A DNA stretch of 64,000 nucleotides from a virus. The translations under genes were made by a program, and so were the position numbers. Positions 17,126 to 61,631 of the stretch are shown here, one piece after another. Numbering within the stretch: the stretch's first letter is position 1; the number at the start of each line of letters is the position of its first letter. The stretch is from IMG/VR virus record IMGVR_UViG_3300032321_001536; one strand, written 5' to 3'. The notes under the pieces were generated by a model, which saw only the letters and a list, made by a program, of their open reading frames with translations, made no database searches and was not told the origin of the DNA.

Positions 17126-17237
17126 TTTACATATTATTTTCTATTAACGTAGTTCTTAATCATTTGATTAACATAAGGTGCAATCATAATTCCCATTACA
17201 ATACCACCTACTAAATATACAAGTTCATTCATATTTT

Positions 17238-18613: not shown

Positions 18614-18629
18614 ATCTATATTTTATAAT

Positions 18630-18986: not shown

Positions 18987-19011
18987 AAAGCAAATATAAT
19001 AAAAAAAAAAA

Positions 19012-38379: not shown

Positions 38380-39459
38380 ATGGCATCAAGATTATTTTGT
38401 TACAACCCATCACCGAATCCTTTAATATCAGGAACCGACCAAGTCGGAAGTATAGCAGCCGTTACAGGAGTTGTAGTTCCTGATACAAGTTTAGAGTGGT
38501 GGAATGGACCAGATGAGGATCCTGGATATATTATTGCCTATAGCGAACTAACTGGAAACAGACCAAATGCGCCTGAAAGAATTTTATCAGTTAACTACAT
38601 TTGTCATATAGGATTTTTTAGAACACCGGTCAAAACTGACCAAAGTTTTATTGATTTAACTCAAATAGTTACTGGAAACTATTCTTTAACATCGGCTACT
38701 CAATCTAAAGAGTATTTAAATAACAATGGATATTGGACATCATATACAGCTTCTGTCGCACCTCCTTCGATAGTCGGAAATCAATTTACATTCTTCGATA
38801 TTACCAATCCAATCAGTTATTCAGGTGGTGATTACTGGTTAGATTTAAGTGATAATGGGCTTCAAGCATATCTTAATGGTGGAACAACTTATTCAGCAAC
38901 CAATGGTGGATTATTTGATTTTGATGGAATTGATGATACTATGAGTATTAATGACTATACGAATTTTATTTTTCAATTACAAACCGATGATTATAGAACT
39001 TTTCAAATTTGGGCTAAACTAGATACACTGCCTGTATCTGGATTTATGCCAATTTTTGGAAAGCTCTCAAGTTCTTATGGATTCGATGGTTATTTTTTAG
39101 CAGTAAATAGTAATGGAACAGTTCGTTGTGTCACAAATGGAACATCAATAAACAGAATTAGCACTTCAACTGCAACTGTATCTGCTGGAGCTTGGTATTT
39201 CTATACATTTACAACCGTGATTTCAGCAACAGCTGGTTCTACTCAAGTTTGGTTAAACACTACTCAGATAATTTCTGCTACTCACGGAACCGATACTTAT
39301 AATGAGTCTAATCCATTCTATTTTGGATATATTGGATCAGGTGTGAGTTCGCAATATTTAAATGGAAAAATTGGAGATTTCTATGTTTATGGTGAACAAT
39401 TCACACAATCACAGATTCAAAATAATTTTGATGCTACAAAAACACGATTCGGACTCTAA
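38380..39459 (+). CDS. fibre/receptor-binding-like protein, paralog A, with C-terminal concanavalin-A/LamG-like domain
   Basis: N-terminal 125 aa ~65% identical to next gene; C-terminus FQIWAKLD...AWYFYTFTT...TQVWLNTTQI LamG-like. Confidence 0.6.
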   Translation: MASRLFCYNPSPNPLISGTDQVGSIAAVTGVVVPDTSLEWWNGPDEDPGYIIAYSELTGNRPNAPERILSVNYICHIGFFRTPVKTDQSFIDLTQIVTGNYSLTSATQSKEYLNNNGYWTSYTASVAPPSIVGNQFTFFDITNPISYSGGDYWLDLSDNGLQAYLNGGTTYSATNGGLFDFDGIDDTMSINDYTNFIFQLQTDDYRTFQIWAKLDTLPVSGFMPIFGKLSSSYGFDGYFLAVNSNGTVRCVTNGTSINRISTSTATVSAGAWYFYTFTTVISATAGSTQVWLNTTQIISATHGTDTYNESNPFYFGYIGSGVSSQYLNGKIGDFYVYGEQFTQSQIQNNFDATKTRFGL

Positions 39460-39477: not shown

Positions 39478-40593
39478 ATGGCAACCTCAAGAGCATTTTG
39501 TTATAACCCATCACCAAATCCACCAATATCGGGAACTGAACAGATTGGAAGTATCGCAGCAGTAACCGGTAATGTCTCAATAGATGGAAGTCTACAATGG
39601 TGGAACGGACCAGATGAAGATTTAGGATATATTATAGCGTATGTAGATCCATCTGGTGATAGACCAAATGCGCCTGAGAGAACCTTTTTAACTAACTATG
39701 TTTGTAATATTGGTTTCTTTAGGTCAGCTGCAAAAACAGAACAAAGTTTTGTTGATTTAGTTCAAATTATTTCAGCAAGCACCTCTCTTATATTAGCTTC
39801 ACAATCTAAAACTTGGTTAAATAATAACGGATATTGGACATCATATTCAACTGTCTCTACATTAGGAACTATTGGTAATCCAGCAGTAAGTGCTCAAGCA
39901 ATTTATAATTCCGGACAAACAACAAGTGGTTGGTATTATATACAAACATCTAATATGACATCTGCTAAACAGATATATTGTAATATGACCGATGAAGGTG
40001 GTGGTTGGATGTTAATGAGTTATAGTCCAAATAATATTGCTGGGGTTCCTTTGGGTGCTCCACTGGGAATTCCTTATCCAAACCAATGGTTAGGTGGAAC
40101 TGGTTCACTTACTTCTATAGTTTCAATTGATGCTAGAGAAGTTTGGTATCATAATGGATTAGCTCAGTGTTCACAAGTTATGAAAATAGCATCAACGACC
40201 GCGTCATTAGTTCCTTTGGTATCTAATGTTCAGATTGCTAATAAAGTTATTTATAGTAATCCAAATAACTTAAGATTAAGTGCCACCTTCTCTACCACAC
40301 TGAATAATAACACACCTATGACAGGAACTTGGTCAGGTATTAAAGGACACACTTTAATGAATACTAGTTTAGCGGTAAATGCACCAGGTGATTGGATTTA
40401 TGCTGTTAATACTTGGTGGACAGTTTGTGGCCCATCTACTCAGTTATCTGCGGATGGTCGAAGTGGTAATGCTCAAGGATCAGGATCATGGACAAATATT
40501 TCAAATAGTAATATTTATGGTATGGCAGATGTTGCTGCTACCACTAGTTCATTTAGGTCAGATATTAAAACATATGCTGTTTATATTAAATAA
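39478..40593 (+). CDS. fibre/receptor-binding-like protein, paralog B, with different C-terminal domain
   Basis: shared N-terminal module (FCYNPSPNP...WWNGPDED...RPNAPER...NNNGYWTSY) then unrelated C-terminus. Confidence 0.6.
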   Translation: MATSRAFCYNPSPNPPISGTEQIGSIAAVTGNVSIDGSLQWWNGPDEDLGYIIAYVDPSGDRPNAPERTFLTNYVCNIGFFRSAAKTEQSFVDLVQIISASTSLILASQSKTWLNNNGYWTSYSTVSTLGTIGNPAVSAQAIYNSGQTTSGWYYIQTSNMTSAKQIYCNMTDEGGGWMLMSYSPNNIAGVPLGAPLGIPYPNQWLGGTGSLTSIVSIDAREVWYHNGLAQCSQVMKIASTTASLVPLVSNVQIANKVIYSNPNNLRLSATFSTTLNNNTPMTGTWSGIKGHTLMNTSLAVNAPGDWIYAVNTWWTVCGPSTQLSADGRSGNAQGSGSWTNISNSNIYGMADVAATTSSFRSDIKTYAVYIK

Positions 40594-41813: not shown

Positions 41814-43718
41814 ATGAAAATTTTTAAAATTATTAGCAGCTTGCTGTTACTAATGGCCTTTGCTACGTCAGTAAAGGCACAAAACGGTCCACCATCACCA
41901 TCTAATGGAATCTGGGGAATCATCGACACCAACTATCAAGTTGGAACAAGTGTTCAGGGTCACACAACCGCAAAATTGACTTTACAGAACACTACTTTTA
42001 ATAAAATAACTGGAGTTCAGTTTAGAGTATTTTATGATAAAAATGCTTTTTCTTCCGTAGCTGTATCTCTTGTAAATCCAGGAGCAAACCTTTATGTTCA
42101 GAGTTTAGATAACAATGTTAATGGGTATGTTACAATCACTTTAGTTTATACTGGATCAAGTTCTACTTATACACTTCCAAATGGTGAAACGTTCTTGTTA
42201 GACTTCACACATATTATACCAAGTTCATCTTTTCAAGCTTTAGCGGCAATTGGTAACTTGACTTGGACCGGTGTAAATGCTTATCCACAAGTTGCGGCAG
42301 AACAACCAGGAAATGATATAGCTCTTTCGTTACATAACTACGGAGGTAACTTTATCAGACCTACATTAGACTATCACGGAACATTTACTAATGTTACTGG
42401 CTCAGCTGCTAAAAACCTATCATTGGCTTTAGAGAAAAAACCTAAGACATCAAACGTTTGGGCACAACACTCAACTTATATGACAGATATCAACGGTGAC
42501 TTTCAATTAAGTGAAACTATTGATACAACATTCTGGGATGTAAGATTAGCAATTCAAGGAGATACAATGGCGGTTGGAAACGTAATCTCTGTAGCAGATG
42601 CTCAACAAATAAATCAATGGATTTTAGGTTCTTCTAACCCACAATCTTGGGATTATTATCACTCTGATGTTAACGCTGATAACAACTTAACTATATCAGA
42701 TGCTTGGGGTGTGTTTGGTAGAATCTCTGGAAGATTTGCGGTATGGCCAAACAACGTAAAAGATGTTAAGTTCTTTAGTGTGTCTGAATATAACACAATC
42801 ACAGGAACACCAGCGACTAACTACACAACAACAATCACTGGTCAAACAAACTTCTATTTCAATATCTTACCTAATCAACCTGACTCTGTAACTTTCTATG
42901 TTTTAGTTCCGGGAGATGCTAACAACACAGGATATCACATGGCACGTTTAGTTCCAATTGAAATTGAAAACCCTGCTAATGCACCTACACACTTAATTGA
43001 TGAGTCTGTTATTTATGACTTCAATGTTTCATCTGTTGAAGTAAACGTTCCATCTCTTTCAGTTGAAGAAGGAAACTTAGTGAAACTTCCGGTTAAATTA
43101 TTTACTGGTGGTAAAAGTGTTGGAGCTTTACAACTATCATTAAAATATGATGAAGAGTTGTTAGAGTTTATTGAATTAAATAATAGTGAAAAATCTATGA
43201 ACTGGATGAGTTTTATTAATCCTATGGACGGAATCGTTGAGTGGGGTGGATATGACGCTTCATTAAATGAAAATCTTTTCGTAGACGGTGAGACAGTTTT
43301 CACACTTAACTTTTTAGCTAAAAAACCACAAGGTGAGTGGGCTGTAAGTCCTCTTTATACAACAAGAAAATTTGTTGGTGATGAGTCAGCTACTGATATG
43401 GAAGTTACACCAACTAACGGAGTTTATGAAGTTAAATCTCTTAATGGTGTTGAATTAAAAGATAACGAAATTCTTGTTTATCCTAACCCAACTACTGGAG
43501 AAGTTATTATCAAATTTAATGTATCAATTGATGGTAATGTAAGTTTAGCTTTTGTAGACGGAAATGGTAAAAGAGCAATTACAGTATTTGAACAATATAT
43601 GCCGAGTGGGAATTATGCTTACTCAGCTACTTTAGAAAGTCTAAGACCAGGAACTTATTACACTACACTTACTACTCAAGCGGGTATATCTGTGAATAAA
43701 ACTATTTTGGCGAAATAA
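41814..43718 (+). CDS. secreted multidomain protein with type IX secretion system C-terminal sorting domain (T9SS CTD, Por_Secre_tail type), two cohesin-like modules and dockerin-type calcium loops
   Basis: signal peptide ...ATSVKAQ; C-terminus ILVYPNPTTGEVIIKF...GNYAYSATLESLRPGTYYTTLTT...KTILAK; cohesin-like GNLVKLPVKL...LSLKYDEELLEF. Confidence 0.8.
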   Translation: MKIFKIISSLLLLMAFATSVKAQNGPPSPSNGIWGIIDTNYQVGTSVQGHTTAKLTLQNTTFNKITGVQFRVFYDKNAFSSVAVSLVNPGANLYVQSLDNNVNGYVTITLVYTGSSSTYTLPNGETFLLDFTHIIPSSSFQALAAIGNLTWTGVNAYPQVAAEQPGNDIALSLHNYGGNFIRPTLDYHGTFTNVTGSAAKNLSLALEKKPKTSNVWAQHSTYMTDINGDFQLSETIDTTFWDVRLAIQGDTMAVGNVISVADAQQINQWILGSSNPQSWDYYHSDVNADNNLTISDAWGVFGRISGRFAVWPNNVKDVKFFSVSEYNTITGTPATNYTTTITGQTNFYFNILPNQPDSVTFYVLVPGDANNTGYHMARLVPIEIENPANAPTHLIDESVIYDFNVSSVEVNVPSLSVEEGNLVKLPVKLFTGGKSVGALQLSLKYDEELLEFIELNNSEKSMNWMSFINPMDGIVEWGGYDASLNENLFVDGETVFTLNFLAKKPQGEWAVSPLYTTRKFVGDESATDMEVTPTNGVYEVKSLNGVELKDNEILVYPNPTTGEVIIKFNVSIDGNVSLAFVDGNGKRAITVFEQYMPSGNYAYSATLESLRPGTYYTTLTTQAGISVNKTILAK

Positions 43719-43784
43719 TAAATATAATTAACCACTGGGGAACTGGTGGTTGATTATCTAAAAAATAAAAAAAAAAAGTAAACT

Positions 43785-44132
43785 ATGGCAAGAAAGAAAG
43801 CAGAAGAACAAGAACCAGAAGAAAACTCTTGGTCTGGACTTAGGAAAACAATCATCGGTACTTTAACAACTGTTATCGCAGGTGGAGGAGTTTGGTTATC
43901 AACAATATTATTCGGTGGTGGTAGTGAAGAACCTAAAGAAGAAGTAAAAACTGAGCAAACAGCACCTGCTGGTCAAGCTCCAGTTATTGTAAATGTTCAA
44001 CAAAATCAGGAGAACAAACAAAAAGTTGAAAACGGTGGCAATACCGTTATCAGAGAAAGAGTGATTGAGAAATCACCTACACCAACTCAAGAACAACCAA
44101 AACCAAAGAAAGAAGAAGAAGATTCTTGGTAA
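43785..44132 (+). CDS. single-pass membrane protein, E/K/Q/P-rich tail
   Basis: TM segment IIGTLTTVIAGGGVWLSTILFGGG. Confidence 0.5.
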   Translation: MARKKAEEQEPEENSWSGLRKTIIGTLTTVIAGGGVWLSTILFGGGSEEPKEEVKTEQTAPAGQAPVIVNVQQNQENKQKVENGGNTVIRERVIEKSPTPTQEQPKPKKEEEDSW

Positions 44133-44162
44133 ATAAAATTATAACAAAAAAAAAATTAGAAT

Positions 44163-44765
44163 ATGATAAAAAACTTTTTTAGCAGTAAAACAGATTATGT
44201 TAAAGTAGAAGACAAAAACCGTTTCTACTACATGCTTCAACAAATGCAAGCAAATAGATGGAGAATCACCGCAATAGTATTGGGTATTTTTGTTCTTATA
44301 ATTTTAGGAATAAATGCAGGTGTATTTTTCGGAGCATCAATTGGTGAAGATTGGAAAGAAATGTTACTTATCCTTTTAGGTGCCTTTGTTGGTAACTTAA
44401 ATAAAGTAGTTGATTACTGGTTTAATTCAGAAGATAGAGACAAAATGTTAATTCAAAAGGTTGATGAAGAAGACGGTGTTGTTTTATCTAACGTAGCAGA
44501 GTATCCAGATGATAAAAAAAAAAGTAGTATCGTAACTGAAGAAGTAGTTGCTGAAGAAGTAGTTGCTGAAGAACCAGTTTTTGAAAAAGTTGAAGTTGAT
44601 GAAGATGGAGATGGAGTAAATGATGGATATGATACTGACGGTGATGGTGATATTGACGAATACTTTGAACACAGAAATTGTGAACACGTTTGGGGAGATG
44701 CCGATGGAGATGGTTATGAAGAATGTCAAATTTGTGGACTTCTTAGAAACCAAACTGAGGAATAA
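44163..44765 (+). CDS. membrane protein with EEVVA repeats, Asp-rich calcium-binding-like region and C-terminal Cys cluster
   Basis: TM ITAIVLGIFVLIILGINAGVFF; EEVVAEEVVAEE; DEDGDGVNDGYDTDGDGDIDE; CEHVW...CQICG. Confidence 0.55.
   Translation: MIKNFFSSKTDYVKVEDKNRFYYMLQQMQANRWRITAIVLGIFVLIILGINAGVFFGASIGEDWKEMLLILLGAFVGNLNKVVDYWFNSEDRDKMLIQKVDEEDGVVLSNVAEYPDDKKKSSIVTEEVVAEEVVAEEPVFEKVEVDEDGDGVNDGYDTDGDGDIDEYFEHRNCEHVWGDADGDGYEECQICGLLRNQTEE
44538..44573 (+). repeat. 15-nt direct tandem repeat gaagaagtagttgct x2 (+partial)
   Basis: seen directly; encodes EEVVA x2. Confidence 0.7.
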
Positions 44766-44788
44766 ACCAAATAAAAAAATAAAACATT

Positions 44789-45517
44789 ATGAAACCACTA
44801 CGATTACTTTTAATAATGACATCTATGCTACTTGGCTTTACCCAAGTAGCATTTAGTCAGATTGGTTCTGTGAAAACAGAATCATATCAAGCATCTTTTG
44901 AGAAAACACAATCAATTGATAGTGTATCTAATTACACAGATACAATACAAATTCCTATTCAACTACTTAAAATTGGCATCAATGCTGAACTTTATGAACT
45001 TTATCCTGAATTAAAGGATAAGAGAGTTGGTTTGGGTGTCACTAATATCGTAATTGAATATTTAGAAATGACCGGTAGATTTGTTTTTACCGAAGAGAAA
45101 GAAGAAATCAAACAAAGGATGATTGCACAAGATAAAGCATCAGACAAAGGTGTTTCTTCAAATAAGATTGAAGTAAAAGGAAACGTTGTTTTAGCAAAAT
45201 ACTTTGTTTATATCGAAGTTTATGATTTCTCTGTATCAGAAGATGAAGTAGTTAAAGTAAATGGCGAACAAAAAACAACTCAAACTACAAGATTAGGATT
45301 ACAAATCAAATTTGTAGATGCTGAAACTAGTGAAGTATTAGTAGGATCTGGTTTAGGAGAAGCTTCAACGATTAAAACCGAATCTATTTTAGATGGTGTT
45401 GAAGACGGTGTTAAATTTAACCAATCAACAATTGGTATAACAACTAAAAAAGCATTAGAAACATCTTCTTCAAGAGTTGTTACAAGAATGATTAAAAAAG
45501 GAATATTTAAAAGCTAA
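44789..45517 (+). CDS. CsgG/TolB-N-like periplasmic/outer-membrane lipoprotein-like protein
   Basis: signal peptide ...VAFSQ; KDKRVGLGVTNIVIEYLEMTGRFVFTEEKEEIKQ resembles CsgG core (R-V-A-V...TGRF-V-ER). Confidence 0.45.
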   Translation: MKPLRLLLIMTSMLLGFTQVAFSQIGSVKTESYQASFEKTQSIDSVSNYTDTIQIPIQLLKIGINAELYELYPELKDKRVGLGVTNIVIEYLEMTGRFVFTEEKEEIKQRMIAQDKASDKGVSSNKIEVKGNVVLAKYFVYIEVYDFSVSEDEVVKVNGEQKTTQTTRLGLQIKFVDAETSEVLVGSGLGEASTIKTESILDGVEDGVKFNQSTIGITTKKALETSSSRVVTRMIKKGIFKS

Positions 45518-47473
45518 ATGAAAATTTATAAATTTTTAATTGCTTTTATTTTTTTATTATTATCAACGATTGAATTAAAAGCACAAACATTTCTTTATTC
45601 TTATACAGACCCATGCACTGGTTTGTTAAAAAGTTTAACAGTTCCTACTAATGGGGTTACTGTGACTTATTTTGGTCAAATACAAACTTTTAATCCGTCT
45701 GATTTTCAAAACGGTGTTTTCGATCAGTGGGCTAATGGAGTATTAAGCACTTACGGAAACGAAAATCCCTGTGGATCTGTTATTGGTGTTGGAACCAGTG
45801 TTGATATAGCTCAAGGTTCCGCTATCAACTTTATATCGATCATAAATAATATATCAGCATTAAGTGAACTTCAAAGTGCCATGGGTGGAGGATCACTTAA
45901 TACAATGAGTGTGATAGAAAGTACTAAGTCTGCATCTGGTAAGAAAGATAAAAAAGATAAGAATAACACAACCAACGGAACTAATCAAACTGTAACAAAT
46001 TCAAATATTGAATCGGGAAATAATTCTAATCAATCAAATGAAAATGGTCAAAGTGGAAATAGTGGTTCTAACACTTCACAAAATAGTAACGGACAAAATG
46101 GCGGTGAATCTGGAACTTCCGGTCAAAATTCATCTAATCAAAGTGGAGGATCTAATAATCAAAATAGTGAATCTTCTAACAACAATTCCGAAACAACAAA
46201 TGGTGAGAATAATCAAAGTAGTAACTCTCAAAGTAGTAACTCTCAAAATACTAACGGTGGATCAAATTCAAATAATTCATCCAACTCGAATCAAAATGGT
46301 GAGAGTAATCAGACAACATCAAATGGTCAATCACAAAGTAACTCAAATGAAAATGGCAATTTATCAACTCAATCAGGAGAAGGTGGTCAAAATCAAGGAG
46401 GTGAAAATGGAGGTTCAATTAATTCAACCGGTCAATTAAATCAAACTTTATCAGGATCGACACAAAATGGTCAGAATGAAGGTGGTAACAATTCACAAAA
46501 TAATCAATCATCTCAAAATTCTACAACTGAGAACACTCAAAACGAAAATGGTCAGTCCGGTCAAAACAACCAGAATTCAAACTCTACTAGTTCTGAACAA
46601 CAGTCTGGTCAAAATTTAAATAACTCTGAAAACACATCTCAGAATTCTTCAGAATCGTCCAATACACAAACTGGTTCTCAAACTTCTAATGGTTCTAATG
46701 GTAGTTCAGGATCTAGTCAAGAATCTAGTGGTAATCCACCAAATGGTTCTGAAAGTGCAACAGAAACCACAGAAGAAAAAAAGATTAACTCTTTAGGTGG
46801 AACTGTAAACTCAACTCAAAGATCTACTGAAAGTAATAAACCACAAATTGTTTTGAGTTCTGATTTTGCTGGATTTAACTTTAGAGATAAAGAAGTAAGT
46901 TTTGGTGGTAAAGGAACCGCTGGATACACTTCTATGAGATGGGATGGTAAAAGAAGTTATGGAGTTCTTTTAGATTACACATCTATTATTAGAGGACCAA
47001 ATGTAACAGGATTCTGGGCTAATATGGCAAAAAGAAGAATCGATTTAATTTCTGTAACCGCTACTATTAGTTTTTACGGTAGAGGTTCTCAATACGGAAC
47101 ATTAGCTTTAGGTCAAATGTGGAGTTTTCCTAAAGTTAAAAATTTAAAAGCTATCTATTTAGCAACTGGTTCATTTGGAAATGTTTATGGTGAAACATTT
47201 TTAGGAACAGCAGCAATTGCTGGTGGAATGTATGACTGGAAAGTTTCTAAAAGAATTGATGTTAAACTAATGAATCTATTTATATACGCTCCTTATGTGA
47301 GTTACTATAATGATATTTTACTTAAATCTCCTTATGTTATTATGCCAATTATCGGGACTAATATCGGAATAACAAAGAAATTCAAATTCAATGTTAATTT
47401 CGGAGGAGCTTATGCGATAAATGAAAACGTAATGAACTTCACTTTGATGTTTGGAACAAGATTAGCAATATGA
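45518..47473 (+). CDS. secreted protein: signal peptide, ~275-aa S/N/Q/G-rich low-complexity region, C-terminal beta-barrel-like domain (possibly PorP/SprF-like outer-membrane protein)
   Basis: signal ...IELKAQ; alternating hydrophobic beta-strand pattern in last ~210 aa; PorP/SprF assignment is tentative. Confidence 0.55.
   Translation: MKIYKFLIAFIFLLLSTIELKAQTFLYSYTDPCTGLLKSLTVPTNGVTVTYFGQIQTFNPSDFQNGVFDQWANGVLSTYGNENPCGSVIGVGTSVDIAQGSAINFISIINNISALSELQSAMGGGSLNTMSVIESTKSASGKKDKKDKNNTTNGTNQTVTNSNIESGNNSNQSNENGQSGNSGSNTSQNSNGQNGGESGTSGQNSSNQSGGSNNQNSESSNNNSETTNGENNQSSNSQSSNSQNTNGGSNSNNSSNSNQNGESNQTTSNGQSQSNSNENGNLSTQSGEGGQNQGGENGGSINSTGQLNQTLSGSTQNGQNEGGNNSQNNQSSQNSTTENTQNENGQSGQNNQNSNSTSSEQQSGQNLNNSENTSQNSSESSNTQTGSQTSNGSNGSSGSSQESSGNPPNGSESATETTEEKKINSLGGTVNSTQRSTESNKPQIVLSSDFAGFNFRDKEVSFGGKGTAGYTSMRWDGKRSYGVLLDYTSIIRGPNVTGFWANMAKRRIDLISVTATISFYGRGSQYGTLALGQMWSFPKVKNLKAIYLATGSFGNVYGETFLGTAAIAGGMYDWKVSKRIDVKLMNLFIYAPYVSYYNDILLKSPYVIMPIIGTNIGITKKFKFNVNFGGAYAINENVMNFTLMFGTRLAI
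45950..46780 (+). repeat. coding low-complexity/degenerate repeat region (NS/NQ/GS-rich)
   Basis: reiterated aat/agt/caa/ggt codons; alt-frame ORF 46008..46439 is an artefact of this. Confidence 0.6.
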
Positions 47474-48642
47474 GAAACTTAATTATAACACTTTTAGTAA
47501 TTTTCAATATCTTTGCAATAGACGCTCAACCATTTACTTACTCTGGTTGGGTAAAGGGAGCAAATGAACAAGGACTTTCTAATGTTCCCGTAACTCTTTG
47601 GGGTAGGAGAACTGATCCATATGATATCACTTATCCAGCTTACTCAACTGCTGCTTCTTACACAACAGGAACTGTTATACCATCATCGGATGATGTAACA
47701 CACGGTCCATTTAATATAGGATTTACTTTTAATTTCTTTGGTAATAACTACACACAGTTTTATGTAGGATCAAACGGTTGGATTGGATTTAGTCCAGGAC
47801 AAACTACCGGATATGTAGCTCAGTATATTCCAAATGCTTCTTCTCCTATGAATACTATATTAGCAGACTGGGAAGATCTTTTTCCGGGAGCATCAAATAT
47901 AAGATACACAACTATCGGAGTAGCACCTAATAGACAATTAGTAGTTTCTTTTAACGCTGTTCCACACTATGGATGTAACACAAATTTACACACTTTTCAA
48001 TTTGTTCTAAAAGAAACATCTGGTATAATTGATATTAACTATCAATCTAAACCTCAATGTGGTGCTAACAATGCTACTGCTGGTTTAGTTAACTCTAATA
48101 ATACTAATGTCGTTCCAGTTGGTGGTAAAAACGCTTCTCAATGGAATGTCACAAATTATTCTGTTAGATTTACACCATCGGCGGCTGAAACAACATTTTC
48201 TTTAAAAGGAACTTATTTGACAAACGCATCTGGTTATTTTACAATGGTTCCTAATTTAGATGCTCAATCTTATCAATTTGAAGTTAGATTGGAAAGTTTG
48301 ACAATGCCAAATTTTACACCAACTGAAACAAACTATCCAAATCAATTAAGTCATTCTGGAACAACTTTAAATTCAAAGTTATTTTATCAAATGGATATTA
48401 ATAATGATGGTAGAGTCAATGTAGCAGATTCTTGGTGTATTTATGGTAAAGCATCAGGTGTATTTCCTACTTGGTTAAATTCACCAAATTATAGAATATT
48501 TAACCAAACTCAATGGAATGTTATTAAGGTTGGAACAACTAATCTTAAATCAACATACCCAGGTGTTCAATCAATGATAATAACGCCAGTCAATGGTGGG
48601 TCAACTACATTCTATTTAGTTAGAACTGGATTCACAAATTAA
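47470..48642 (+). CDS. secreted protein with dockerin-type calcium-binding loop
   Basis: signal ...FAIDAQ; DINNDGRVNVADSWCIYGKASGVFPTWLN mirrors DVNADNNLTISDAWGVFGRISGRFAVWPN in 41814 gene. Confidence 0.55.
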   Translation: MRNLIITLLVIFNIFAIDAQPFTYSGWVKGANEQGLSNVPVTLWGRRTDPYDITYPAYSTAASYTTGTVIPSSDDVTHGPFNIGFTFNFFGNNYTQFYVGSNGWIGFSPGQTTGYVAQYIPNASSPMNTILADWEDLFPGASNIRYTTIGVAPNRQLVVSFNAVPHYGCNTNLHTFQFVLKETSGIIDINYQSKPQCGANNATAGLVNSNNTNVVPVGGKNASQWNVTNYSVRFTPSAAETTFSLKGTYLTNASGYFTMVPNLDAQSYQFEVRLESLTMPNFTPTETNYPNQLSHSGTTLNSKLFYQMDINNDGRVNVADSWCIYGKASGVFPTWLNSPNYRIFNQTQWNVIKVGTTNLKSTYPGVQSMIITPVNGGSTTFYLVRTGFTN

Positions 48643-48659
48643 AAAATAAAACAACCACT

Positions 48660-49112
48660 ATGAAAACACTTTTAATTTCAATTTTAATCTTCTTACCAAC
48701 ATTATTATTTGGCCAAAATTGCGTAACTGTGGATTCAGTTTACTCTACTTGTAAAGCAAAAGAAATAAATAGAAGAGATATTAGATTCGGTCTAAAGCAA
48801 ATAGCAGAAGATGAACTATCTAACAAATATTGTTTATCAGATGACGGTGATGATATAGATTTAGAAGTTTACTATTTCGGAACTCCTAAAACCACAATTA
48901 GAATATTGGGTGTTGAGAAAACAGATATGAAAACTCAAGTCGGTGTCAAAATGTATTATAAAGGTGTGACTTATGAAAGTATTGGTGAGTCAGAAGTAGA
49001 AGTAAGAGCAGTTATGATAGAACTTGTCGAAGGTTCAATTCCATTTAATCAAACAGTTCTTTCTTCGGCTATAAAAAAGGCTATCATCGAATGTATTTCA
49101 AAAATGCCATAA
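48660..49112 (+). CDS. small secreted protein (150 aa)
   Basis: signal peptide MKTLLISILIFLPTLLFGQ. Confidence 0.45.
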   Translation: MKTLLISILIFLPTLLFGQNCVTVDSVYSTCKAKEINRRDIRFGLKQIAEDELSNKYCLSDDGDDIDLEVYYFGTPKTTIRILGVEKTDMKTQVGVKMYYKGVTYESIGESEVEVRAVMIELVEGSIPFNQTVLSSAIKKAIIECISKMP

Positions 49113-49549
49113 TTTTTGTTTTTCTACTGTTAACAACTAATTTATTCTCACAAATATTGGTTGATGATGTTGGTGATGGTTGGAAATCTCAAGTTGACTC
49201 TGCTCTTTTATTAATTAAAAAAACCAGTCCAGAACATTGGACTGAAGTAGAAAATTATTGCACTCACATCACATTTTGGTTAGGTAATTTTTCTACAACA
49301 ACAGATTCATCAACAGTTATGATATCAACAAAAGATATTAGATTGAATTCAATTAATAATTTAGCTTGTATAATTATACACGAAACTCACCATCTTTACA
49401 TACTGAATAAAGGTATTAAATTGACTGAACCTAAAGAAGAGTTAGAATGTTATTTATATGAACTAAAATTTGTAAATAAGTTAAAAGACTGTGAATTTTG
49501 GTTAAAAGCACATGTAATTAAGTGTATAAATCACTATTCTGAAGAATAA
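49091..49549 (+). CDS. small secreted HExxH zinc-metallopeptidase-like protein
   Basis: signal ...NLFSQ; IIHETHHLYIL (HExxH). Confidence 0.5.
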   Translation: MYFKNAIIFVFLLLTTNLFSQILVDDVGDGWKSQVDSALLLIKKTSPEHWTEVENYCTHITFWLGNFSTTTDSSTVMISTKDIRLNSINNLACIIIHETHHLYILNKGIKLTEPKEELECYLYELKFVNKLKDCEFWLKAHVIKCINHYSEE

Positions 49550-50266
49550 TTACTTCCAGTAACCTTGGTCAGAAGTAAAGTAGTCTTTGTTATTCTTATT
49601 AAAGAATGATGATAACATTAGTTGTAACATATACCAGACACCTTTGTTTTCAAATCTTCTAGGCGGTGTATAAACAATGTTATTGATTCTTCCGAACTTT
49701 TTTGGCTTTATCTGTTTTGAAAACATATAGTCTTCTGCTACTTTTATTTCTTCATCAAAACCACCAATCACTTTAAAAGTTTCTGATCTAACTAACATAT
49801 AACCACCTAAACAGAATGGAGTCGACCACTTTGAAAGCATTTGAATAAAATCAAAAACTTTATAAACATAATTATATCTACCGTTGTCTGATCGAAACTT
49901 AACAGTAACTAAATCTAAATTATATTTTTTAATCTTAAGTATTGATCTTAAAAGAACCTTAGGATCTAATAAGAAAACATCAGCATCCATAAAAAGAACA
50001 TAAGGAGTTTTTACTAATTTAAAACCATTGTTTCTAGCAACTGATGGCAGACCACCGTCCATTAGATATAAATCAAAATAATCTGAATTCATTTCTAATC
50101 TATTAATTAAGTCTGGTTTTGTAACACCATCATTTGATGCGTCACAAACTATAACTTTTACTCTCCAAATATCTTTCTGATAATTCAGTAAGTCTAAAGT
50201 TTTTAAAATGATTTCTTTTTCATTTTTACAAGGTATTACTATAGTAACAAGTTCTTCTAATTTCAT
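49550..50266 (-). CDS. glycosyltransferase family 2
   Basis: VTIVIPCKNE, DAD motif (FMDADVF). Confidence 0.7.
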   Translation of the reverse strand: MKLEELVTIVIPCKNEKEIILKTLDLLNYQKDIWRVKVIVCDASNDGVTKPDLINRLEMNSDYFDLYLMDGGLPSVARNNGFKLVKTPYVLFMDADVFLLDPKVLLRSILKIKKYNLDLVTVKFRSDNGRYNYVYKVFDFIQMLSKWSTPFCLGGYMLVRSETFKVIGGFDEEIKVAEDYMFSKQIKPKKFGRINNIVYTPPRRFENKGVWYMLQLMLSSFFNKNNKDYFTSDQGYWK

Positions 50267-55166: not shown

Positions 55167-55328
55167 TTAAAATTCTTCTTCAATAAATACCCACATTAAA
55201 AGGTAAATCCAAAATCCACCACCTAATATTAAAAATAATATTCTAAACAACCACGGATTAATTCCGGTGGCTTTACCAATGCCACCACAGACACCAGCGA
55301 TTACTTTATCAGTTCTACTTCTTTTCAT
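55167..55328 (-). CDS. unannotated 53-aa PspC-domain membrane protein
   Basis: MKRSRTDKVIAGVCGGIGKATGINPWLFRILFLILGGGFWIYLLMWVFIEEEF matches PspC domain (DK-x-I-x-GVCGG...). Confidence 0.6.
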   Translation of the reverse strand: MKRSRTDKVIAGVCGGIGKATGINPWLFRILFLILGGGFWIYLLMWVFIEEEF

Positions 55329-55590
55329 AGTGAATATTATTTTTACAGTTACCTTTATGAGAACCCCATCTTGAGTTTCCGTATCCTACTACAATATATT
55401 CACAACCTTCAAGTGTATACACTTTATAGTTTTGGTCATAGTATTGTGAGTTTTTATCTAACTCCATACGTTTTGTTTCTGGGGCTCTTACTCCTCTGTC
55501 TTCACAAGAAGTAAAGAACATTGTAAATAGTAGAATAAGTCCTGAGATTATAACTACTTCAATTAGTTTAATTTTGTCTTTTGCGCTCAT
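55315..55590 (-). CDS. small lipoprotein (lipobox FFTSC), paralog of 58098..58445
   Basis: shared RAPETKRMELDKNSQYYDQNYK / KAPQSKRMELDSTSRYSDQNYK. Confidence 0.55.
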   Translation of the reverse strand: MSAKDKIKLIEVVIISGLILLFTMFFTSCEDRGVRAPETKRMELDKNSQYYDQNYKVYTLEGCEYIVVGYGNSRWGSHKGNCKNNIHYEKK

Positions 55591-55599
55591 ATGTTTTTT

Positions 55600-55800
55600 T
55601 TATTTTAAAAATATATATACAGTATCAGAAACAACATTACTGACCGTAATAGATTCGTGACATTTTCCATCATAATTAACATGCTCAGTCACAACAGTAA
55701 CGGTGTCTTTTTCAACAAATGATGAATAACATCCGTAATCTTTAGTTGATTTACAACTAAATAGAATGAGTGATAGGAGTATTAGTAATTTAGTTTTCAT
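55600..55800 (-). CDS. small lipoprotein (LILFSC)
   Basis: signal peptide + Cys lipobox. Confidence 0.45.
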   Translation of the reverse strand: MKTKLLILLSLILFSCKSTKDYGCYSSFVEKDTVTVVTEHVNYDGKCHESITVSNVVSDTVYIFLK

Positions 55801-57453: not shown

Positions 57454-58101
57454 TTATTTCATTTCATTTAATTCTTCAATAATCTTTTCTTTATTATTCT
57501 TTAGTAACTCATTACAATAATCTGTATTGAATTTAACAGTATCTAAGAATTTGATTTGTGTTGGAATGAATTCTTCTAGAGACTTATTATACTCACTAGC
57601 TAAATTAGTAACAACAGATTTCCACCCTTCGATGATACCACCCATCGTATCAGCGTCTCTGATGATTTTTTGTAGGATATCTAAATCGATATCCAAGTGT
57701 GGGAACTCAGTTGCGATTATAATGTTCTCGATTTGAGAATATAAGTCGGACTTATTAGTGAACTTCGTGAACTCAGTAATAGTATCTAAAAACTCTTTTA
57801 AGGATACTAAGGCAAGTTCGATATTTTCACTATCTTTTAATTTACCACCAGAGTGATTAAAGTCGTGAAACAGTGCTGCTAAACCTAAACAAAGTTTATT
57901 ATATGGTGTTAGTTCATATTCATCTTTGTAATGATTAAAAAGTATCATAGCATTGTTGAAAACATTTACCATATGTTCATTGTTATGGTAATCGTTCTCT
58001 ACTAGATTGTTTTCTAAGATATAAACCTTAGCATTGTAAAGGATATTATCGATATTTGAATCATCAATATGTGGGAAGTCATTAAATGTTTTTAGTCTCA
58101 T
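57454..58101 (-). CDS. HD-domain phosphohydrolase-like protein
   Basis: NNEHMVNV ... AALFHDFNHSG (H...HD motif). Confidence 0.5.
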   Translation of the reverse strand: MRLKTFNDFPHIDDSNIDNILYNAKVYILENNLVENDYHNNEHMVNVFNNAMILFNHYKDEYELTPYNKLCLGLAALFHDFNHSGGKLKDSENIELALVSLKEFLDTITEFTKFTNKSDLYSQIENIIIATEFPHLDIDLDILQKIIRDADTMGGIIEGWKSVVTNLASEYNKSLEEFIPTQIKFLDTVKFNTDYCNELLKNNKEKIIEELNEMK

Positions 58102-61601: not shown

Positions 61602-61631
61602 AAAAAAAGAGACCGATTGGTCTCTTTTTTT
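61602..61631. terminator. bidirectional terminator (agagacc gatt ggtctct between A7 and T7)
   Basis: same stem sequence as terminator at 26157. Confidence 0.7.

What the first reader, a model, noticed from the sequence alone, without database searches (positions are those of the whole stretch)
41814..49549. Phage-borne secreted/surface module built around a type IX secretion (T9SS) cargo protein
Eight co-oriented + strand genes, all with Bacteroidota-type signal peptides or TM anchors, form one contiguous block. The members are: (a) a 634-aa protein ending in a textbook T9SS C-terminal sorting domain (VYPNPTTGEVIIKF...K-T-I-L-A-K); (b, c) two membrane proteins; (d) a CsgG/TolB-N-like lipoprotein; (e) a 651-aa protein fusing a long S/N/Q-rich disordered region to a beta-barrel-like domain that may be PorP/SprF-like; (f) a dockerin-loop protein; (g) a small secreted protein; (h) a secreted HExxH mini-peptidase. 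The surrounding gene content is phage-like: HNH, Dam, MazG, sigma factor, tRNAs and dense overlapping genes. A virus-encoded set of proteins designed to be exported and anchored by the host T9SS would be an unusual way of remodelling the host cell surface (superinfection exclusion, adhesion or biofilm manipulation) or of building an extracellular assembly. I am not aware of such a module being described in a phage.
Basis: partly seen in the sequence, partly recalled or inferred. Interest (0 to 1): 0.8.

Follow-up and report, generated by a model that had tools for sequence, protein, structure and literature searches.

The report
Phage cassette remodelling host cell envelope
A large phage of Flavobacterium-like bacteria carries a conserved eight-gene cassette of exported proteins: one is shipped by the host's type IX secretion system and built to dock sugar-binding partners, and others form an outer-membrane complex borrowed from bacteria, so the cassette probably re-dresses the envelope of the infected cell, though its role is untested.

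Summary
The eight co-oriented genes are real, and the window is phage DNA. It has a baseplate gene closest to 634–735 kb megaphages.

- **(a):** passes the Pfam Cohesin and T9SS sorting-domain thresholds and also carries a dockerin-like module.
- **(f):** shares that module. In most relatives it is fused to a C-type lectin.
- **(d):** has a CsgG/PelC/LptE-type fold, but this copy has lost the lipobox that most relatives keep.
- **(g):** a trimmed paralog of (d).
- **(e):** a small Cys-pair domain, a 311-aa S/N/Q/G linker and a 12-stranded barrel. The barrel is autotransporter/FapF-like, not PorP/SprF-like.
- **(h):** has an invariant HExxH but belongs to no recognised peptidase family.

The cassette is syntenic in about 80 viral contigs and in the cultured Flavobacterium phage immuto. 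Its flanks differ between contigs. The d–e(–g) core has uncharacterised bacterial counterparts in FCB phyla and Spirochaetia.

Only one of the eight proteins is a T9SS cargo. Phage-encoded T9SS cargo was already reported in 2019–2020. The cohesin/dockerin-lectin plus CsgG-like/barrel cassette appears undescribed.

Most likely it remodels the infected cell's envelope. I favour receptor-glycan masking or superinfection exclusion, and that step is inferred. It is a new variant of a known kind, of moderate to high interest.

The parts
41814..43718 (+). Gene a (634 aa). Signal peptide aa 1-22 with Gln23 at +1. N-domain aa 24-178, with only a sub-threshold Cohesin match. Beta-sandwich plus dockerin-like plus beta module aa 179-378. 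Conserved linker. Cohesin aa 408-537. T9SS type-A-like CTD aa 555-631.
   Evidence: In phage immuto it is split into two genes, im14 and im15.
42549..42743 (+). Dockerin-like segment of a (aa 246-310): a degenerate first loop-helix and a canonical second Ca-loop, DVNADNNLTISD, followed by a helix.
   Evidence: The family profile matches the ScaB dockerin 4uyp_B at E 0.003 across both segments. Pfam Dockerin_1 scores 12.6-16 bits, below the cut-off.
43035..43424 (+). Cohesin domain of a (aa 408-537).
   Evidence: PF00963 at 46.3 bits against a cut-off of 24.1. Immuto im15 scores 36.7 bits.
43476..43706 (+). T9SS C-terminal sorting domain of a (aa 555-631).
   Evidence: PF18962 at 32.6 bits against 27. 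TIGR04183 at 22.0 against 23. The PNP, G.Y.Y, G.Y and terminal K positions are kept in at least 80% of family members.
43785..44132 (+). Gene b (115 aa). Charged N-terminus, one Gly/Thr-rich probable membrane anchor (aa 20-44), a low-complexity tail and a conserved C-terminal 'SW'.
   Evidence: Found in 76 of 81 loci. 57% identical to immuto im16.
44163..44765 (+). Gene c (200 aa). Conserved N-terminal half with two hydrophobic segments (aa 33-82). Variable acidic, Asp/Gly-rich C-terminal half with a Cys/His cluster.
   Evidence: Found in 37 loci, either before or after d. In 18 other loci an unrelated small two-TM protein occupies the slot.
44789..45517 (+). Gene d (242 aa). Secreted protein with a CsgG/PelC/LptE/TolB-N-type fold. 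It is the most conserved member of the cassette. It has an SPase-I signal (…AFS|Q) and no lipobox in this copy.
45518..47473 (+). Gene e (651 aa). Signal peptide. N-domain aa 23-125 with two conserved Cys. A 311-aa S/N/G/Q/T linker (aa 126-436). A 12-stranded outer-membrane beta-barrel (aa 443-651).
47470..48642 (+). Gene f (390 aa). Signal peptide, a short conserved N-segment, a variable middle domain (aa ~50-230, unassigned here) and a C-terminal dockerin-type module (aa 227-390) paralogous to a aa ~200-370.
   Evidence: hhalign probability 99.8%, E 4e-28. Most relatives carry a C-type lectin domain with EPN/WND motifs in the middle position, and one carries Lectin_C plus a ConA-like domain.
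48660..49112 (+). Gene g (150 aa). Small secreted protein, a trimmed paralog of d.
   Evidence: hhalign g against d: probability 93%, E 3e-7. It cross-hits bacterial d/g-like lipoproteins. No PDB relative by sequence.
49091..49549 (+). Gene h (152 aa). Small secreted protein with invariant H97-E98-x-x-H101 and invariant E116, E117, Y121 and E124.
   Evidence: No peptidase family or PDB match.

Best explanation
This is a conserved accessory cassette, exchangeable between phages, whose products are all sent to the envelope of the infected Bacteroidota (Flavobacterium-type) cell.

Shown:
- Six products have Q-rule Sec signal peptides and two are probable membrane proteins.
- (a) is a T9SS type-A-like cargo with a cohesin just before its sorting domain and a dockerin-like module upstream.
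- (f) carries the same dockerin-type module. In most relatives it is joined to a Ca-dependent C-type lectin, and the lectin position is swapped between lineages.
- (d) and (g) have the fold of ring- or plug-forming OM-proximal proteins (CsgG, PelC, LptE, TraT).
- (e) is a 12-stranded OM barrel with an N-domain on a long flexible linker.
- The d-e(-g) core has bacterial counterparts.

Inferred mechanism:
- The host Sec system exports all products.
- T9SS/PorV carries (a) to the cell surface.
- The cohesin of (a) captures the dockerin-type modules of (a) and (f), so that lectin heads are displayed on the infected cell.
- BAM inserts (e) into the outer membrane.
- (d) and (g) assemble beneath (e), with (b) and (c) as inner-membrane partners.
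- (h), and the Endonuclease_NS nuclease present in many relatives, act in the periplasm or outside the cell.

Inferred role, which I commit to only weakly: the cassette coats or masks host surface glycans and reinforces the envelope. This would stop further phages, and the phage's own progeny, from productively adsorbing to or injecting into the infected cell and its debris. In other words, it would act in superinfection exclusion or receptor masking.
For: - **Gene set and packing:**
- **Domain calls for (a):**. CTD motif conservation is shown.
- **Q-rule signal peptides across families:**, with PMC5837995 and PMC10653852.
- **(f) and (a) share a dockerin-type module:**
- **Lectin domains in the (f) family:** C-type lectin at E 5e-19 with EPN/WND motifs in the consensus, and a Lectin_C plus ConA-like variant.
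- **Fusion and fission:** (a) equals immuto im14 plus im15, which argues that the dockerin-bearing half and the cohesin-CTD half work together.
- **Fold of (d):**. Transitive CsgG membership is shown.
- **(g) is a paralog of (d):**
- **Barrel of (e):**
- **Conservation and synteny:** about 80 viral loci with non-conserved flanks.
- **Cultured-phage example:** host Flavobacterium sp. LMO8.
- **Bacterial d-e(-g) cassettes:**
- **Optional periplasmic or secreted nuclease:** 25 loci.
- **A GH19 endolysin lies next to the cassette in 52 of 81 loci**, which is compatible with late expression.
- **Flavobacterial phage susceptibility depends on gliding and T9SS-linked surface functions:** PMC9804748.
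- **Type-A CTDs are sufficient for T9SS export and are handled by PorV:** PMC12618676.
Against: - No expression, localisation or binding data exist.
- Dockerin HMM scores are below threshold, and the first Ca-loop is degenerate.
- (f), (g), (h) and the nuclease have no CTD, so it is unexplained how (f) would reach a surface-exposed cohesin.
- The window's own (f) has an unassigned middle domain rather than a recognisable lectin.
- PADLOC finds no defence or exclusion family.
- The topology of (e) is undetermined: its N-domain could be inside or outside.
- In Flavobacterium many type-A cargos are released rather than anchored (my own knowledge), so (a) may be soluble.
- The link between T9SS cargo and d-e in bacteria rests on one locus, L083.
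- Adjacency to the endolysin could reflect shared ancestry only, and it is absent in the window and in immuto.
Confidence: 0.45

Rival explanations
1. Adhesion or aggregation device. The T9SS-delivered cohesin scaffold with docked lectins makes the infected cell stick to polysaccharide particles, algae or neighbouring host cells, much like the host's own mobile surface lectin RemA. That would keep the infected cell in a nutrient-rich spot or bring fresh hosts close before burst.
For: - The (f) family carries lectin domains whose type is swapped between lineages.
- The cohesin, dockerin and CTD parts are as in the best explanation.
- RemA is a T9SS-dependent surface lectin, and its overexpression causes autoaggregation through EPS on neighbouring cells (PMC8481357).
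Against: - It does not account for the inner-membrane proteins, the d/e/g complex, (h) or the optional nuclease.
- It faces the same unsolved problem of how the CTD-less (f) crosses the outer membrane.
- No data exist.
Confidence: 0.2
2. Lysis- or egress-coupled trans-envelope device. (c), or the alternative small two-TM protein, acts as a holin or antiholin. (b) in the inner membrane, with (d), (g) and (e) at the outer membrane, forms a periplasm-spanning link that helps breach the Bacteroidota outer membrane after the endolysin has acted. The lectin and nuclease would then be accessories for release from debris or eDNA.
For: - A GH19 endolysin (PG_binding_1 plus Glyco_hydro_19) lies within 1-2 kb of the cassette in 52 of 81 loci.
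- Nearly every locus has a small two-TM protein inside the cassette. A relative of the alternative two-TM protein sits beside an endolysin-like gene in L091.
- (d) is an OM lipoprotein in most relatives.
- (b) is a bitopic protein with a periplasmic tail.
Against: - There is no endolysin near the cassette in the window, and in immuto it is about 8 kb away.
- The periplasmic part of (b) is low-complexity rather than coiled-coil. (d) is a 240-aa globular, highly conserved protein, unlike o-spanins (my own knowledge of spanins).
- d-e pairs exist in bacterial chromosomes without lysis genes.
- The cohesin/CTD/lectin parts are unexplained.
Confidence: 0.12
3. Self-contained export and display apparatus. 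The d/g ring and the barrel of (e) form a dedicated phage-encoded outer-membrane conduit, analogous to CsgG or FapF. It exports the CTD-less dockerin-tagged proteins, and perhaps (h) and the nuclease, which then assemble on the T9SS-delivered cohesin anchor.
For: - d and e are translationally coupled.
- (f) lacks any known OM-crossing signal.
Against: - A 12-stranded barrel passes only unfolded chains.
- The long hairpin of (d) is polar rather than a CsgG-type amphipathic TM hairpin.
- Bacterial d-e pairs have no obvious cargo genes.
- No HMM places d or e in CsgG, FapF or autotransporter families directly.
Confidence: 0.1
4. Virion-associated proteins, such as tail-fibre accessories or decoration proteins that use Ig-like, cohesin or lectin folds. 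On this reading the CTD is just an Ig-like domain.
For: - Tail-fibre-like genes lie just upstream: 38380-39459 hits the virion structural family phrog_8510, and 39478-40593 has a fibrinogen-like domain.
- The CTD fold is Ig-like (PMC12618676).
Against: - Six of the eight proteins have cleavable Q-rule signal peptides conserved across families.
- (e) is an integral OM barrel, and (b) and (c) are membrane proteins.
- No PHROG structural family matches.
- The upstream tail-fibre-like genes are not conserved next to the cassette.
Confidence: 0.03
5. An ordinary host chromosomal locus: the window is bacterial DNA or a degraded prophage region.
For: - Three MAG contigs carry the cassette.
- Distant d-e pairs are bacterial.
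Against: - The window has a baseplate wedge gene closest to megaphages, plus other phage families and dense small genes.
- The cassette is in a cultured virulent-type myophage genome and in at least 128 viral contigs.
- The first genome scan found none in 185,579 species genomes.
Confidence: 0.02

Closest known systems
Phage-encoded T9SS type-A cargo of 'Cryophage' (Bellas et al. 2020, PMC7468147), and T9SS sorting-domain proteins in crAss-BACON gut phages (PMC6949934)
   Same: A Bacteroidota phage encodes proteins with a Sec signal and a type-A C-terminal sorting domain. These are presumed to hijack the host T9SS and were proposed to act in competition or superinfection exclusion.
   Different: In those phages the cargos are single, variable enzyme or PA14 genes in a 76-kb phage. 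Here one cohesin-bearing cargo is embedded in a conserved 8-gene cassette with dockerin-type lectin partners, a CsgG-like/barrel OM complex, inner-membrane proteins and an HExxH protein. The cassette is shared by 150-430 kb phages.
Cellulosome-type cohesin-dockerin scaffolding (anchoring and adaptor scaffoldins)
   Same: It has a cohesin above the Pfam threshold next to a cell-surface anchoring signal. Partner proteins carry a two-segment EF-hand dockerin-like module. An adaptor-like protein (a_N, or immuto im14) carries a dockerin plus a possible second cohesin.
   Different: - The anchor is a T9SS CTD rather than an SLH domain or sortase signal.
- The docked heads are lectins rather than glycoside hydrolases.
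- The dockerin is below the HMM threshold, and its first Ca-loop is degenerate.
- Binding is untested, and the system is encoded by a virus.
Flavobacterium johnsoniae RemA (T9SS-secreted mobile surface lectin)
   Same: It is a lectin delivered to the flavobacterial surface in a T9SS-dependent way that binds polysaccharide on neighbouring cells (PMC8481357).
   Different: RemA is a single large host adhesin moved by the gliding motor. Here the lectin and the CTD are on separate polypeptides, presumably joined by a cohesin-dockerin contact. No sequence relationship was tested or seen.
CsgG / PelC / LptE / TraT / TolB-N fold of OM-proximal ring or plug proteins
   Different: (d) itself gives no CsgG HMM hit. 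Its hairpin is polar, and this copy has no lipid anchor. The partner barrel has 12 strands, against 16 for PelB and 26 for LptD (figures from my own knowledge). The oligomeric state is unknown.
Type Va autotransporter translocator domains and FapF
   Different: There is no PF03797 hit, no predicted pore helix and no beta-helical passenger. Instead it has a ~100-aa Cys-pair domain on a 115-396-aa S/N/Q/G/T linker, and it is paired with a CsgG-like partner.
Phage superinfection-exclusion envelope proteins (T5 Llp, T4 Imm/Sp, lambda-type Cor; plasmid TraT). Cited from my own knowledge, except for the fold match to TraT.
   Same: These are envelope-located phage or plasmid products. OM lipoproteins mask receptors and inner-membrane proteins block injection. 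They are accessory genes with a patchy distribution.
   Different: There is no sequence or family membership (PADLOC and Pfam negative). The known systems have one or two genes, not eight, and none uses T9SS, cohesin-dockerin or lectins.

Membership tests
T9SS type-A CTD cargo | N-terminal Sec signal peptide | tested here: met
   Hydrophobic N-terminus with …VKA|Q cleavage context. The Q-rule is kept in 58 of 60 family members.
T9SS type-A CTD cargo | C-terminal ~75-aa sorting domain matching the PF18962 / TIGR04183 models at the extreme C-terminus | tested here: met
   PF18962 scores 32.6 bits against a cut-off of 27, covering aa 555-631 of 634. TIGR04183 scores 22.0 against 23, marginally below. 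Immuto im15 scores 34.6 bits. The PNP, GxY and terminal K positions are conserved.
T9SS type-A CTD cargo | Secretion depends on the host T9SS (PorV/SprA), with CTD cleavage | not testable with these tools
   The host of the cultured relative is Flavobacterium, a genus with T9SS (PMC12618676).
Cohesin (PF00963) | HMM match above the gathering threshold | tested here: met
   46.3 bits against 24.1 for aa 408-537. The N-terminal domain scores only 16.1 bits, below threshold, and shows no hhalign relation to the C-terminal cohesin.
Cohesin (PF00963) | Ca-dependent binding of a cognate dockerin | not testable with these tools
Dockerin type I (PF00404) | HMM match above the gathering threshold | tested here: not met
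   12.6 bits for full-length (a) and 16.0 bits for the isolated module, against a cut-off of 22.9. (f) gives only an EF-hand_5 hit at 12.9 bits.
Dockerin type I (PF00404) | Two tandem ~22-aa segments, each a Ca-binding loop plus a helix | tested here: inconclusive
   The second segment is canonical: DVNADNNLTISD plus helix in (a), and DINNDGRVNVAD plus helix in (f). The first keeps the helix but has a degenerate loop. The family profile aligns to both segments of the ScaB dockerin 4uyp_B at E 0.003.
CsgG family (PF03783) | HMM match | tested here: not met
   (d) has no CsgG hit at E <= 1. Homologs at 28-35% identity (P0158, P0201, P0224, P0243, P0265) score 27-46 bits against a cut-off of 20.8, so the relationship is transitive.
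CsgG family (PF03783) | CsgG-type alpha/beta fold | tested here: met
CsgG family (PF03783) | N-terminal lipidation (lipobox Cys) | tested here: not met
   The window copy has no Cys in its N-terminus, and neither does immuto's copy. 41 of 61 phage relatives and the bacterial homologs do have a lipobox.
CsgG family (PF03783) | Amphipathic TM hairpins forming an oligomeric OM pore | tested here: inconclusive
   The long hairpin aa 138-177 is polar, with a mean Kyte-Doolittle value of -0.93 at the tip and no clear alternation. The oligomeric state could not be tested.
PorP/SprF T9SS shuttle (TIGR03519) | HMM match, or a PorV/PorP-like barrel fold | tested here: not met
Type Va autotransporter | C-terminal 12-stranded beta-barrel | tested here: met
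Type Va autotransporter | Autotransporter beta-domain HMM, a pore-filling linker helix and a secreted passenger | tested here: not met
   There is no PF03797 hit and no helix predicted before strand 1. The N-terminal part is a ~100-aa domain plus a disordered linker rather than a beta-helix. The topology is untested.
Gluzincin-type (HExxH…E) metallopeptidase | Invariant HExxH plus a downstream Glu as third zinc ligand | tested here: met
   H97, E98 and H101 are invariant in 48 of 48 homologs. E116, E117 and E124 are also invariant, lying 15-23 residues downstream.
Gluzincin-type (HExxH…E) metallopeptidase | Membership of a recognised peptidase family, or a solved relative | tested here: not met
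   Pfam and NCBIfam give only noise: TIGR04267 at 12.1 bits against 40. phrog_1365 has unknown function and E 0.002. The profile search of the PDB finds nothing. Activity is not testable here.
C-type lectin domain (PF00059), for gene f | CTLD HMM or profile match with EPN/WND Ca- and sugar-binding motifs | tested here: not met
   The window's (f) has no CTLD. Its aa ~50-230 are unassigned. Most relatives, including immuto im13, do have one: the profile reaches E 5e-19 against mannose-receptor CTLDs, with 'GEPNN' and 'WNDLP' in the consensus.
Holin/spanin lysis cassette | Adjacent endolysin, an i-spanin with a periplasmic coiled coil and a short o-spanin lipoprotein | tested here: not met
   There is no endolysin homolog in the window. 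A GH19 endolysin is adjacent in 52 of 81 relatives. The tail of (b) is low-complexity, and (d) is a 240-aa globular protein.

The most novel reading that the evidence does not exclude
The cassette is a virus-encoded, largely self-sufficient surface-assembly machine. A previously unrecognised two- or three-component outer-membrane conduit would export CTD-less, dockerin-tagged lectins. That conduit consists of a CsgG-fold ring of (d) and (g) beneath the 12-stranded barrel of (e), and bacterial versions exist in FCB phyla and Spirochaetia. The exported lectins would snap onto a T9SS-delivered cohesin anchor, forming a phage-built 'lectinosome' on the infected cell. This would reveal both a new bacterial OM export or anchoring system and the first non-cellulolytic, viral use of cohesin-dockerin assembly.
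Probability: 0.1. Interest if true: 0.9.

Novelty: new variant of a known kind. Interest (0 to 1): 0.62.

Why it matters
Phages are known to carry single 'moron' genes that alter the host surface, and isolated T9SS cargo genes have been spotted in Bacteroidota phages. This case is different. It is a conserved, multi-component cassette shared by many large aquatic phages, and a cultured Flavobacterium phage carries it, so it can be studied experimentally.

The cassette combines host T9SS hijacking, a cohesin-dockerin assembly principle otherwise known from cellulosomes, swappable lectin heads, and an outer-membrane complex of unknown function that also exists in uncultured bacterial phyla.

If the display or masking model is right, it would show how infected Bacteroidota cells rebuild their surface. 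That has consequences for phage-host dynamics on particles and in blooms. It would also give T9SS researchers a compact natural cargo and anchor system, and it would point to an uncharacterised bacterial envelope module (d-e-g).

Tried and rejected
- **PorP/SprF identity for (e):** rejected. No HMM hit, and the fold is an autotransporter/FapF-type 12-stranded barrel.
- **(d) as a lipoprotein in this window:** rejected, no Cys.
- **Host-chromosome origin:** rejected.
- **Known defence or exclusion families:** PADLOC was negative for all eight proteins.
- **A second cohesin in the N-domain of (a):** only 16 bits, and no hhalign relation to the C-terminal cohesin. Left open.
- **PDB sequence and profile searches:** full-length (a) and the profiles for (h), (g) and e_N gave nothing significant.
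- **Sigma-70 promoter and terminator scan:** no enrichment over shuffles, so uninformative for a Bacteroidota host.
- **Conserved promoter upstream of (a):** a recurrent ATATTTAT-like motif appears in many loci but not in the window, so expression timing could not be inferred.
- **Sigma-factor adjacency as a regulator clue:** only L044 and L045 have one, it is unrelated to the window's sigma factor, and the lead was dropped.
- **Other CTD cargo in the window or related loci:** none found with the family CTD profile.
- **Other window proteins with cohesin or dockerin modules:** none.
- **AFDB fold search:** the library was unavailable.
- **Homolog search with the bacterial (e)-like partner:** only 6 unannotated hits.
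- **Bacteroidota O-glycosylation sequons:** none in the linker of (e).

Full report
**1. What is at 41814-49549**

- They are packed like an operon. The gaps are 66, 30, 23 and 17 nt. The stop of d directly abuts the start of e. The e/f pair overlaps by 4 nt and the g/h pair by 22 nt.
- Six products (a, d, e, f, g, h) start with a hydrophobic signal sequence followed by Gln (…KA|Q, …FS|Q, …DA|Q, …FG|Q). This holds for nearly all homologs in each family.
- Gln at +1 is the Bacteroidota 'Q-rule' for signal peptidase I substrates (PMC5837995, PMC10653852). It was noted before for P. gingivalis phage proteins (PMC10367356).
- (c) has a strong hydrophobic segment and a weaker second one.
- (b) has a charged N-terminus and a Gly/Thr-rich, only moderately hydrophobic anchor.

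**2. The window is phage DNA**

- ORF 467-2257 matches the baseplate wedge family phrog_219.
- Other ORFs match a virion structural family, a Dam-type methyltransferase, ATPases and a set of sugar-nucleotide and glycosyltransferase genes.
- There are two tRNAs.
- By tblastn the baseplate protein is closest, at about 49% identity, to uncultured megaphages of 634-735 kb. It is more distantly related to Lak phages.
- Window positions 13810-18987 are 79% identical in DNA to one of those megaphages.

**3. The block is a conserved cassette**

- DNA search found homology between gene d and Flavobacterium phage vB_FspM_immuto (160 kb, host Flavobacterium sp. LMO8).
- Protein comparison shows the whole module there:
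  - im13 (C-type lectin) matches f.
  - im14 matches the N-terminal 370 aa of a.
  - im15 (cohesin plus CTD) matches the C-terminal part of a.
  - im16 matches b at 57% identity.
  - im17 matches d at 66%.
  - im18 matches e.
  - im19 matches g.
- A scan of IMG/VR with d found 128 contigs, and 80 were fetched. Contig sizes range from a few kb to 434 kb.
- Across these 81 loci, a, b, d, e, g and h are present and syntenic in 65-81 loci, and f is present in about 67.
- The window's flanking genes recur only in the closest relative, L002.
- Immuto-type flanks (RecA, DnaB, NrdAB) accompany the cassette in only a handful of loci.
- Among 50,697 deposited phage genomes only the immuto isolates have d, and the megaphages closest to the window's baseplate gene lack it.
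- The cassette is therefore a discrete unit found in different phage neighbourhoods and genome size classes.
- d is by far the most conserved member, at 69-95% identity where a, e, f, g and h are 25-65%.

**4. Distribution in bacterial genomes**

- A first scan of 185,579 species-representative genomes found no close relative of d.
- A second scan with a small alignment found ten loci.
- Three of these sit in MAG bins (L090, L091, L092) and carry the phage-type cassette with phage-like neighbours. L090's contig is 254,203 bp, almost the length of viral contig L045 at 254,393 bp.
- The others are genuinely bacterial (see section 9).

**5. Protein a**

- Pfam gives Cohesin at 46.3 bits (cut-off 24.1, aa 408-537) and Por_Secre_tail at 32.6 bits (cut-off 27, aa 555-631). 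NCBIfam TIGR04183 scores 22.0 against a cut-off of 23.
- The hallmark CTD positions (PNP, G.Y.Y, G.Y, terminal K) are kept in at least 80% of the family.
- Immuto im15 independently passes both Pfam thresholds.
- A profile of the N-terminal 400 aa matches a solved cellulosomal dockerin (ScaB, 4uyp_B) at E 0.003 across both dockerin segments (aa 246-310). It also weakly matches transthyretin-like sandwiches just upstream.
- Pfam Dockerin_1 itself stays below threshold at 12.6-16 bits.
- The N-terminal domain has only a sub-threshold Cohesin score of 16 bits.
- (a) exists as one polypeptide here and as two genes in immuto. This fusion/fission pattern suggests the dockerin-bearing half and the cohesin-CTD half work together.

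**6. Protein f**

- Its C-terminal 165 aa are homologous to aa ~200-370 of (a), with hhalign probability 99.8% and E 4e-28. The region includes a canonical loop, DINNDGRVNVAD, plus a helix.
- In most relatives the middle of f is a C-type lectin domain. The profile reaches E 5e-19 against mannose-receptor CTDs, and the consensus contains the EPN and WND Ca- and sugar-binding motifs.
- One variant has Lectin_C plus a ConA-like domain.
- The window's f, with L002, L015, L020 and L030, has a different middle domain that no family matches.
- f is therefore a dockerin-type adaptor with a swappable binding head, usually a lectin.
- No other protein in the window carries this module, a cohesin or a CTD. 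No other CTD was found in the related loci.

**7. Proteins d and g**

- d has no Pfam hit.
- An exhaustive search found 231 representatives at 50% identity clustering. Members at 28-35% identity pass the Pfam CsgG threshold, and some are fused to Ser/Thr kinases or caspases.
- Its long hairpin is polar, so a CsgG-like transmembrane pore is not indicated.
- 41 of 61 phage homologs, and the bacterial ones, have a lipobox. The window's copy and immuto's copy have replaced it with an SPase-I/Q site.
- g is a shortened paralog of d, with hhalign probability 93% and E 3e-7.

**8. Protein e**

- The C-terminal 231 aa were modelled with 31 homologs, giving pLDDT 78 and pTM 0.74. The model is a barrel of 12 long strands.
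- No PorP/SprF, autotransporter or other HMM matches.
- The N-domain has two conserved cysteines.
- The S/N/G/Q/T linker is universal in the phage family, ranging from 115 to 396 aa, and is 311 aa here.
- It is not known whether the N-terminal part is periplasmic (FapF-like) or threaded to the surface (autotransporter-like).
- Phage-encoded OM barrels, including 'autotransporter beta-domain' proteins, exist among uncultured Caudovirales, but they match only moderately at TM 0.5-0.63.

**9. Bacterial counterparts of d-e(-g)**

- These occur in Cloacimonadota, KSB1, Rhodothermales, Ignavibacteriales and Spirochaetia MAGs.
- There a d-like lipoprotein is followed by a 347-414-aa protein with the same plan as e: a signal peptide, a ~130-aa N-domain, a charged linker, and a beta-rich C-terminal region ending in …YRF.
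- The Spirochaetia N-domain matches the e_N profile at E 5e-7.
- A further d/g-like lipoprotein often follows.
- These proteins are unannotated and rare in the databases.
- In the Cloacimonadota locus two T9SS-CTD cargo genes lie just upstream. This is a single case and only a lead.

**10. Protein h and optional members**

- h keeps HExxH in 48 of 48 homologs, together with invariant E116, E117, Y121 and E124. This is a minimal gluzincin-like signature, but h matches no peptidase family or solved structure.
- Extra genes occur inside the cassette in relatives:
  - a secreted Endonuclease_NS nuclease, at 70 bits, in 25 loci, which corresponds to immuto im12;
  - an alternative small two-TM protein in place of c, in 18 loci;
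  - extra OMP-like barrels, in about 6 loci.
- A GH19 endolysin (PG_binding_1 plus Glyco_hydro_19) lies within 1-2 kb of the cassette in 52 of 81 loci. It is not present in the window, and in immuto it is about 8 kb away.

**11. How it most likely works**

Shown:
- All products are envelope-targeted.
- One is a T9SS type-A-like cargo with a cohesin.
- Two carry a dockerin-type module.
- The adaptor usually bears a lectin.
- d, g and e look like an OM complex of bacterial ancestry.

Established knowledge: type-A CTDs are sufficient for T9SS export, are collected by PorV, and can be cleaved and anchored by the PorU complex (PMC12618676).

Inferred:
- (a) reaches the surface through the host T9SS.
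- Its cohesin binds the dockerin-type modules of (a) and (f), displaying lectin heads.
- (e) is inserted by BAM, with d and g beneath it and b and c in the inner membrane.

For the biological role I favour receptor-glycan masking or superinfection exclusion, for four reasons:
- It is the only single role that uses components in every envelope layer.
- The lectin head varies the way receptor-binding proteins do.
- A periplasmic nuclease is a frequent add-on.
- Flavobacterial phage susceptibility depends on gliding and T9SS-linked surface functions (PMC9804748).

That step is inference. PADLOC finds nothing.

The main rivals are a RemA-like adhesion or aggregation device (PMC8481357), a lysis-coupled trans-envelope device (supported by the endolysin adjacency), and a dedicated export conduit for the CTD-less dockerin proteins.

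The largest gap in every surface model is how f crosses the outer membrane.

**12. Comparison with what is known, and novelty**

- Phage-encoded T9SS cargo is not new. Bellas et al. 2020 described three variable type-A CTD genes in the 76-kb 'Cryophage' and proposed T9SS hijacking and superinfection exclusion. de Jonge et al. 2019 noted T9SS sorting-domain proteins in gut phages.
- I found no description of a phage cassette that combines a cohesin-CTD scaffold, dockerin-type lectin adaptors, a CsgG-fold/12-stranded-barrel pair, inner-membrane partners and an HExxH protein. I also found no description of the bacterial d-e-g cassette.
- I therefore rate it a new variant of a known kind, namely phage accessory genes that exploit host secretion to alter the envelope.
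- It has a cultured model system (immuto and Flavobacterium sp. LMO8) that makes it directly testable.
- Interest is 0.62. The cassette is well supported as a real, conserved and unusual unit, but its mechanism and role are inferred, and part of the original novelty claim is pre-empted.

Noticed in passing
window 467-2257 (+) and 13810-18987: The baseplate wedge protein is about 49% identical to those of uncultured 634-735 kb megaphages (LR745206, LR756502, LR756501). It is distantly related to Lak phages. A 5-kb stretch is 79% identical in DNA to LR745206. The window may therefore come from a very large phage.
   Followed up: partly
window 4804-5982(-), 10658-12361(-), 19012-19857(-), 20090-21085(-), 49550-50266(-): The phage carries a set of glycosyltransferases, a UDP-glucose dehydrogenase and a nucleotide-sugar epimerase. 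It also has PRPP synthase at 17597-18613 and FolD at 13800-14693. It may modify host or its own glycans, which could connect to the lectin theme.
   Followed up: no
window 32269-32940(-), 55315-55800(-), 58098-58445(-), 60122-60829(-), 61630-61869(-), 62257-63138(-): At least seven further small proteins have lipobox or Q-rule signal peptides, so this phage invests unusually heavily in exported proteins beyond the cassette.
   Followed up: no
window 38380-39459 (+) and 39478-40593 (+): Directly upstream of the cassette lie a virion-structural-like protein (phrog_8510) and a protein with a fibrinogen-like GGGWT domain and no signal peptide. These are probably tail-fibre or receptor-binding genes. 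They are conserved next to the cassette only in L002.
   Followed up: partly
L083-L088 (Cloacimonadota, KSB1, Rhodothermales, Ignavibacteriales, Spirochaetia MAGs): These loci hold an uncharacterised bacterial cassette: a CsgG-like lipoprotein, then a protein with an N-domain, a charged linker and an OM barrel ending in …YRF, and often a second small d/g-like lipoprotein. In L083 it follows two T9SS-CTD cargo genes and a GLUG-repeat protein.
   Followed up: partly
L090 (CAIWBA010000291, 254,203 bp), L091 (Sediminibacterium MAG, 112 kb contig), L092 (Flavobacterium MAG): Contigs binned as bacterial MAGs carry the phage-type cassette with phage neighbours such as tail-collar-like and endolysin-like genes. 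They are probably jumbo-phage contigs mis-binned into MAGs. L091 has a divergent cassette version, hinting at Chitinophagaceae hosts too.
   Followed up: partly
L003-L081, 1-2 kb from gene a; e.g. L069:6262-7083: A GH19 endolysin (PG_binding_1 plus Glyco_hydro_19) flanks the cassette in 52 of 81 loci, and a recurrent unassigned 199-aa protein flanks it in 32. Neither has a homolog in the window.
   Followed up: partly
public protein clusters P0272-P0336 (homologs of e): Many database gene calls for e are truncated to 168-181 aa that start inside the barrel. The low-complexity linker apparently breaks gene callers or assemblies, so this family is under-annotated.
   Followed up: no
window 43721-43760, between a and b: An imperfect inverted repeat (AACCACTGGGGAACTGGTGGTT) followed by an A-rich run lies just after the stop of a. 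AACCACTA-like strings also precede the start codons of a and g. Their meaning is unknown.
   Followed up: no
upstream of gene a in many loci (e.g. L049, L056, L060, L061, L076): A recurrent ATATTTAT(A/T) motif lies 25-45 nt before the start codon, but it is absent in the window. It may be a phage promoter element.
   Followed up: partly
window 42915-42965 (a aa ~367-383): The linker GDANxTGYxMARxxPIE is strongly conserved. It lies exactly at the point where immuto splits the protein into two genes, so it may be a processing site.
   Followed up: no
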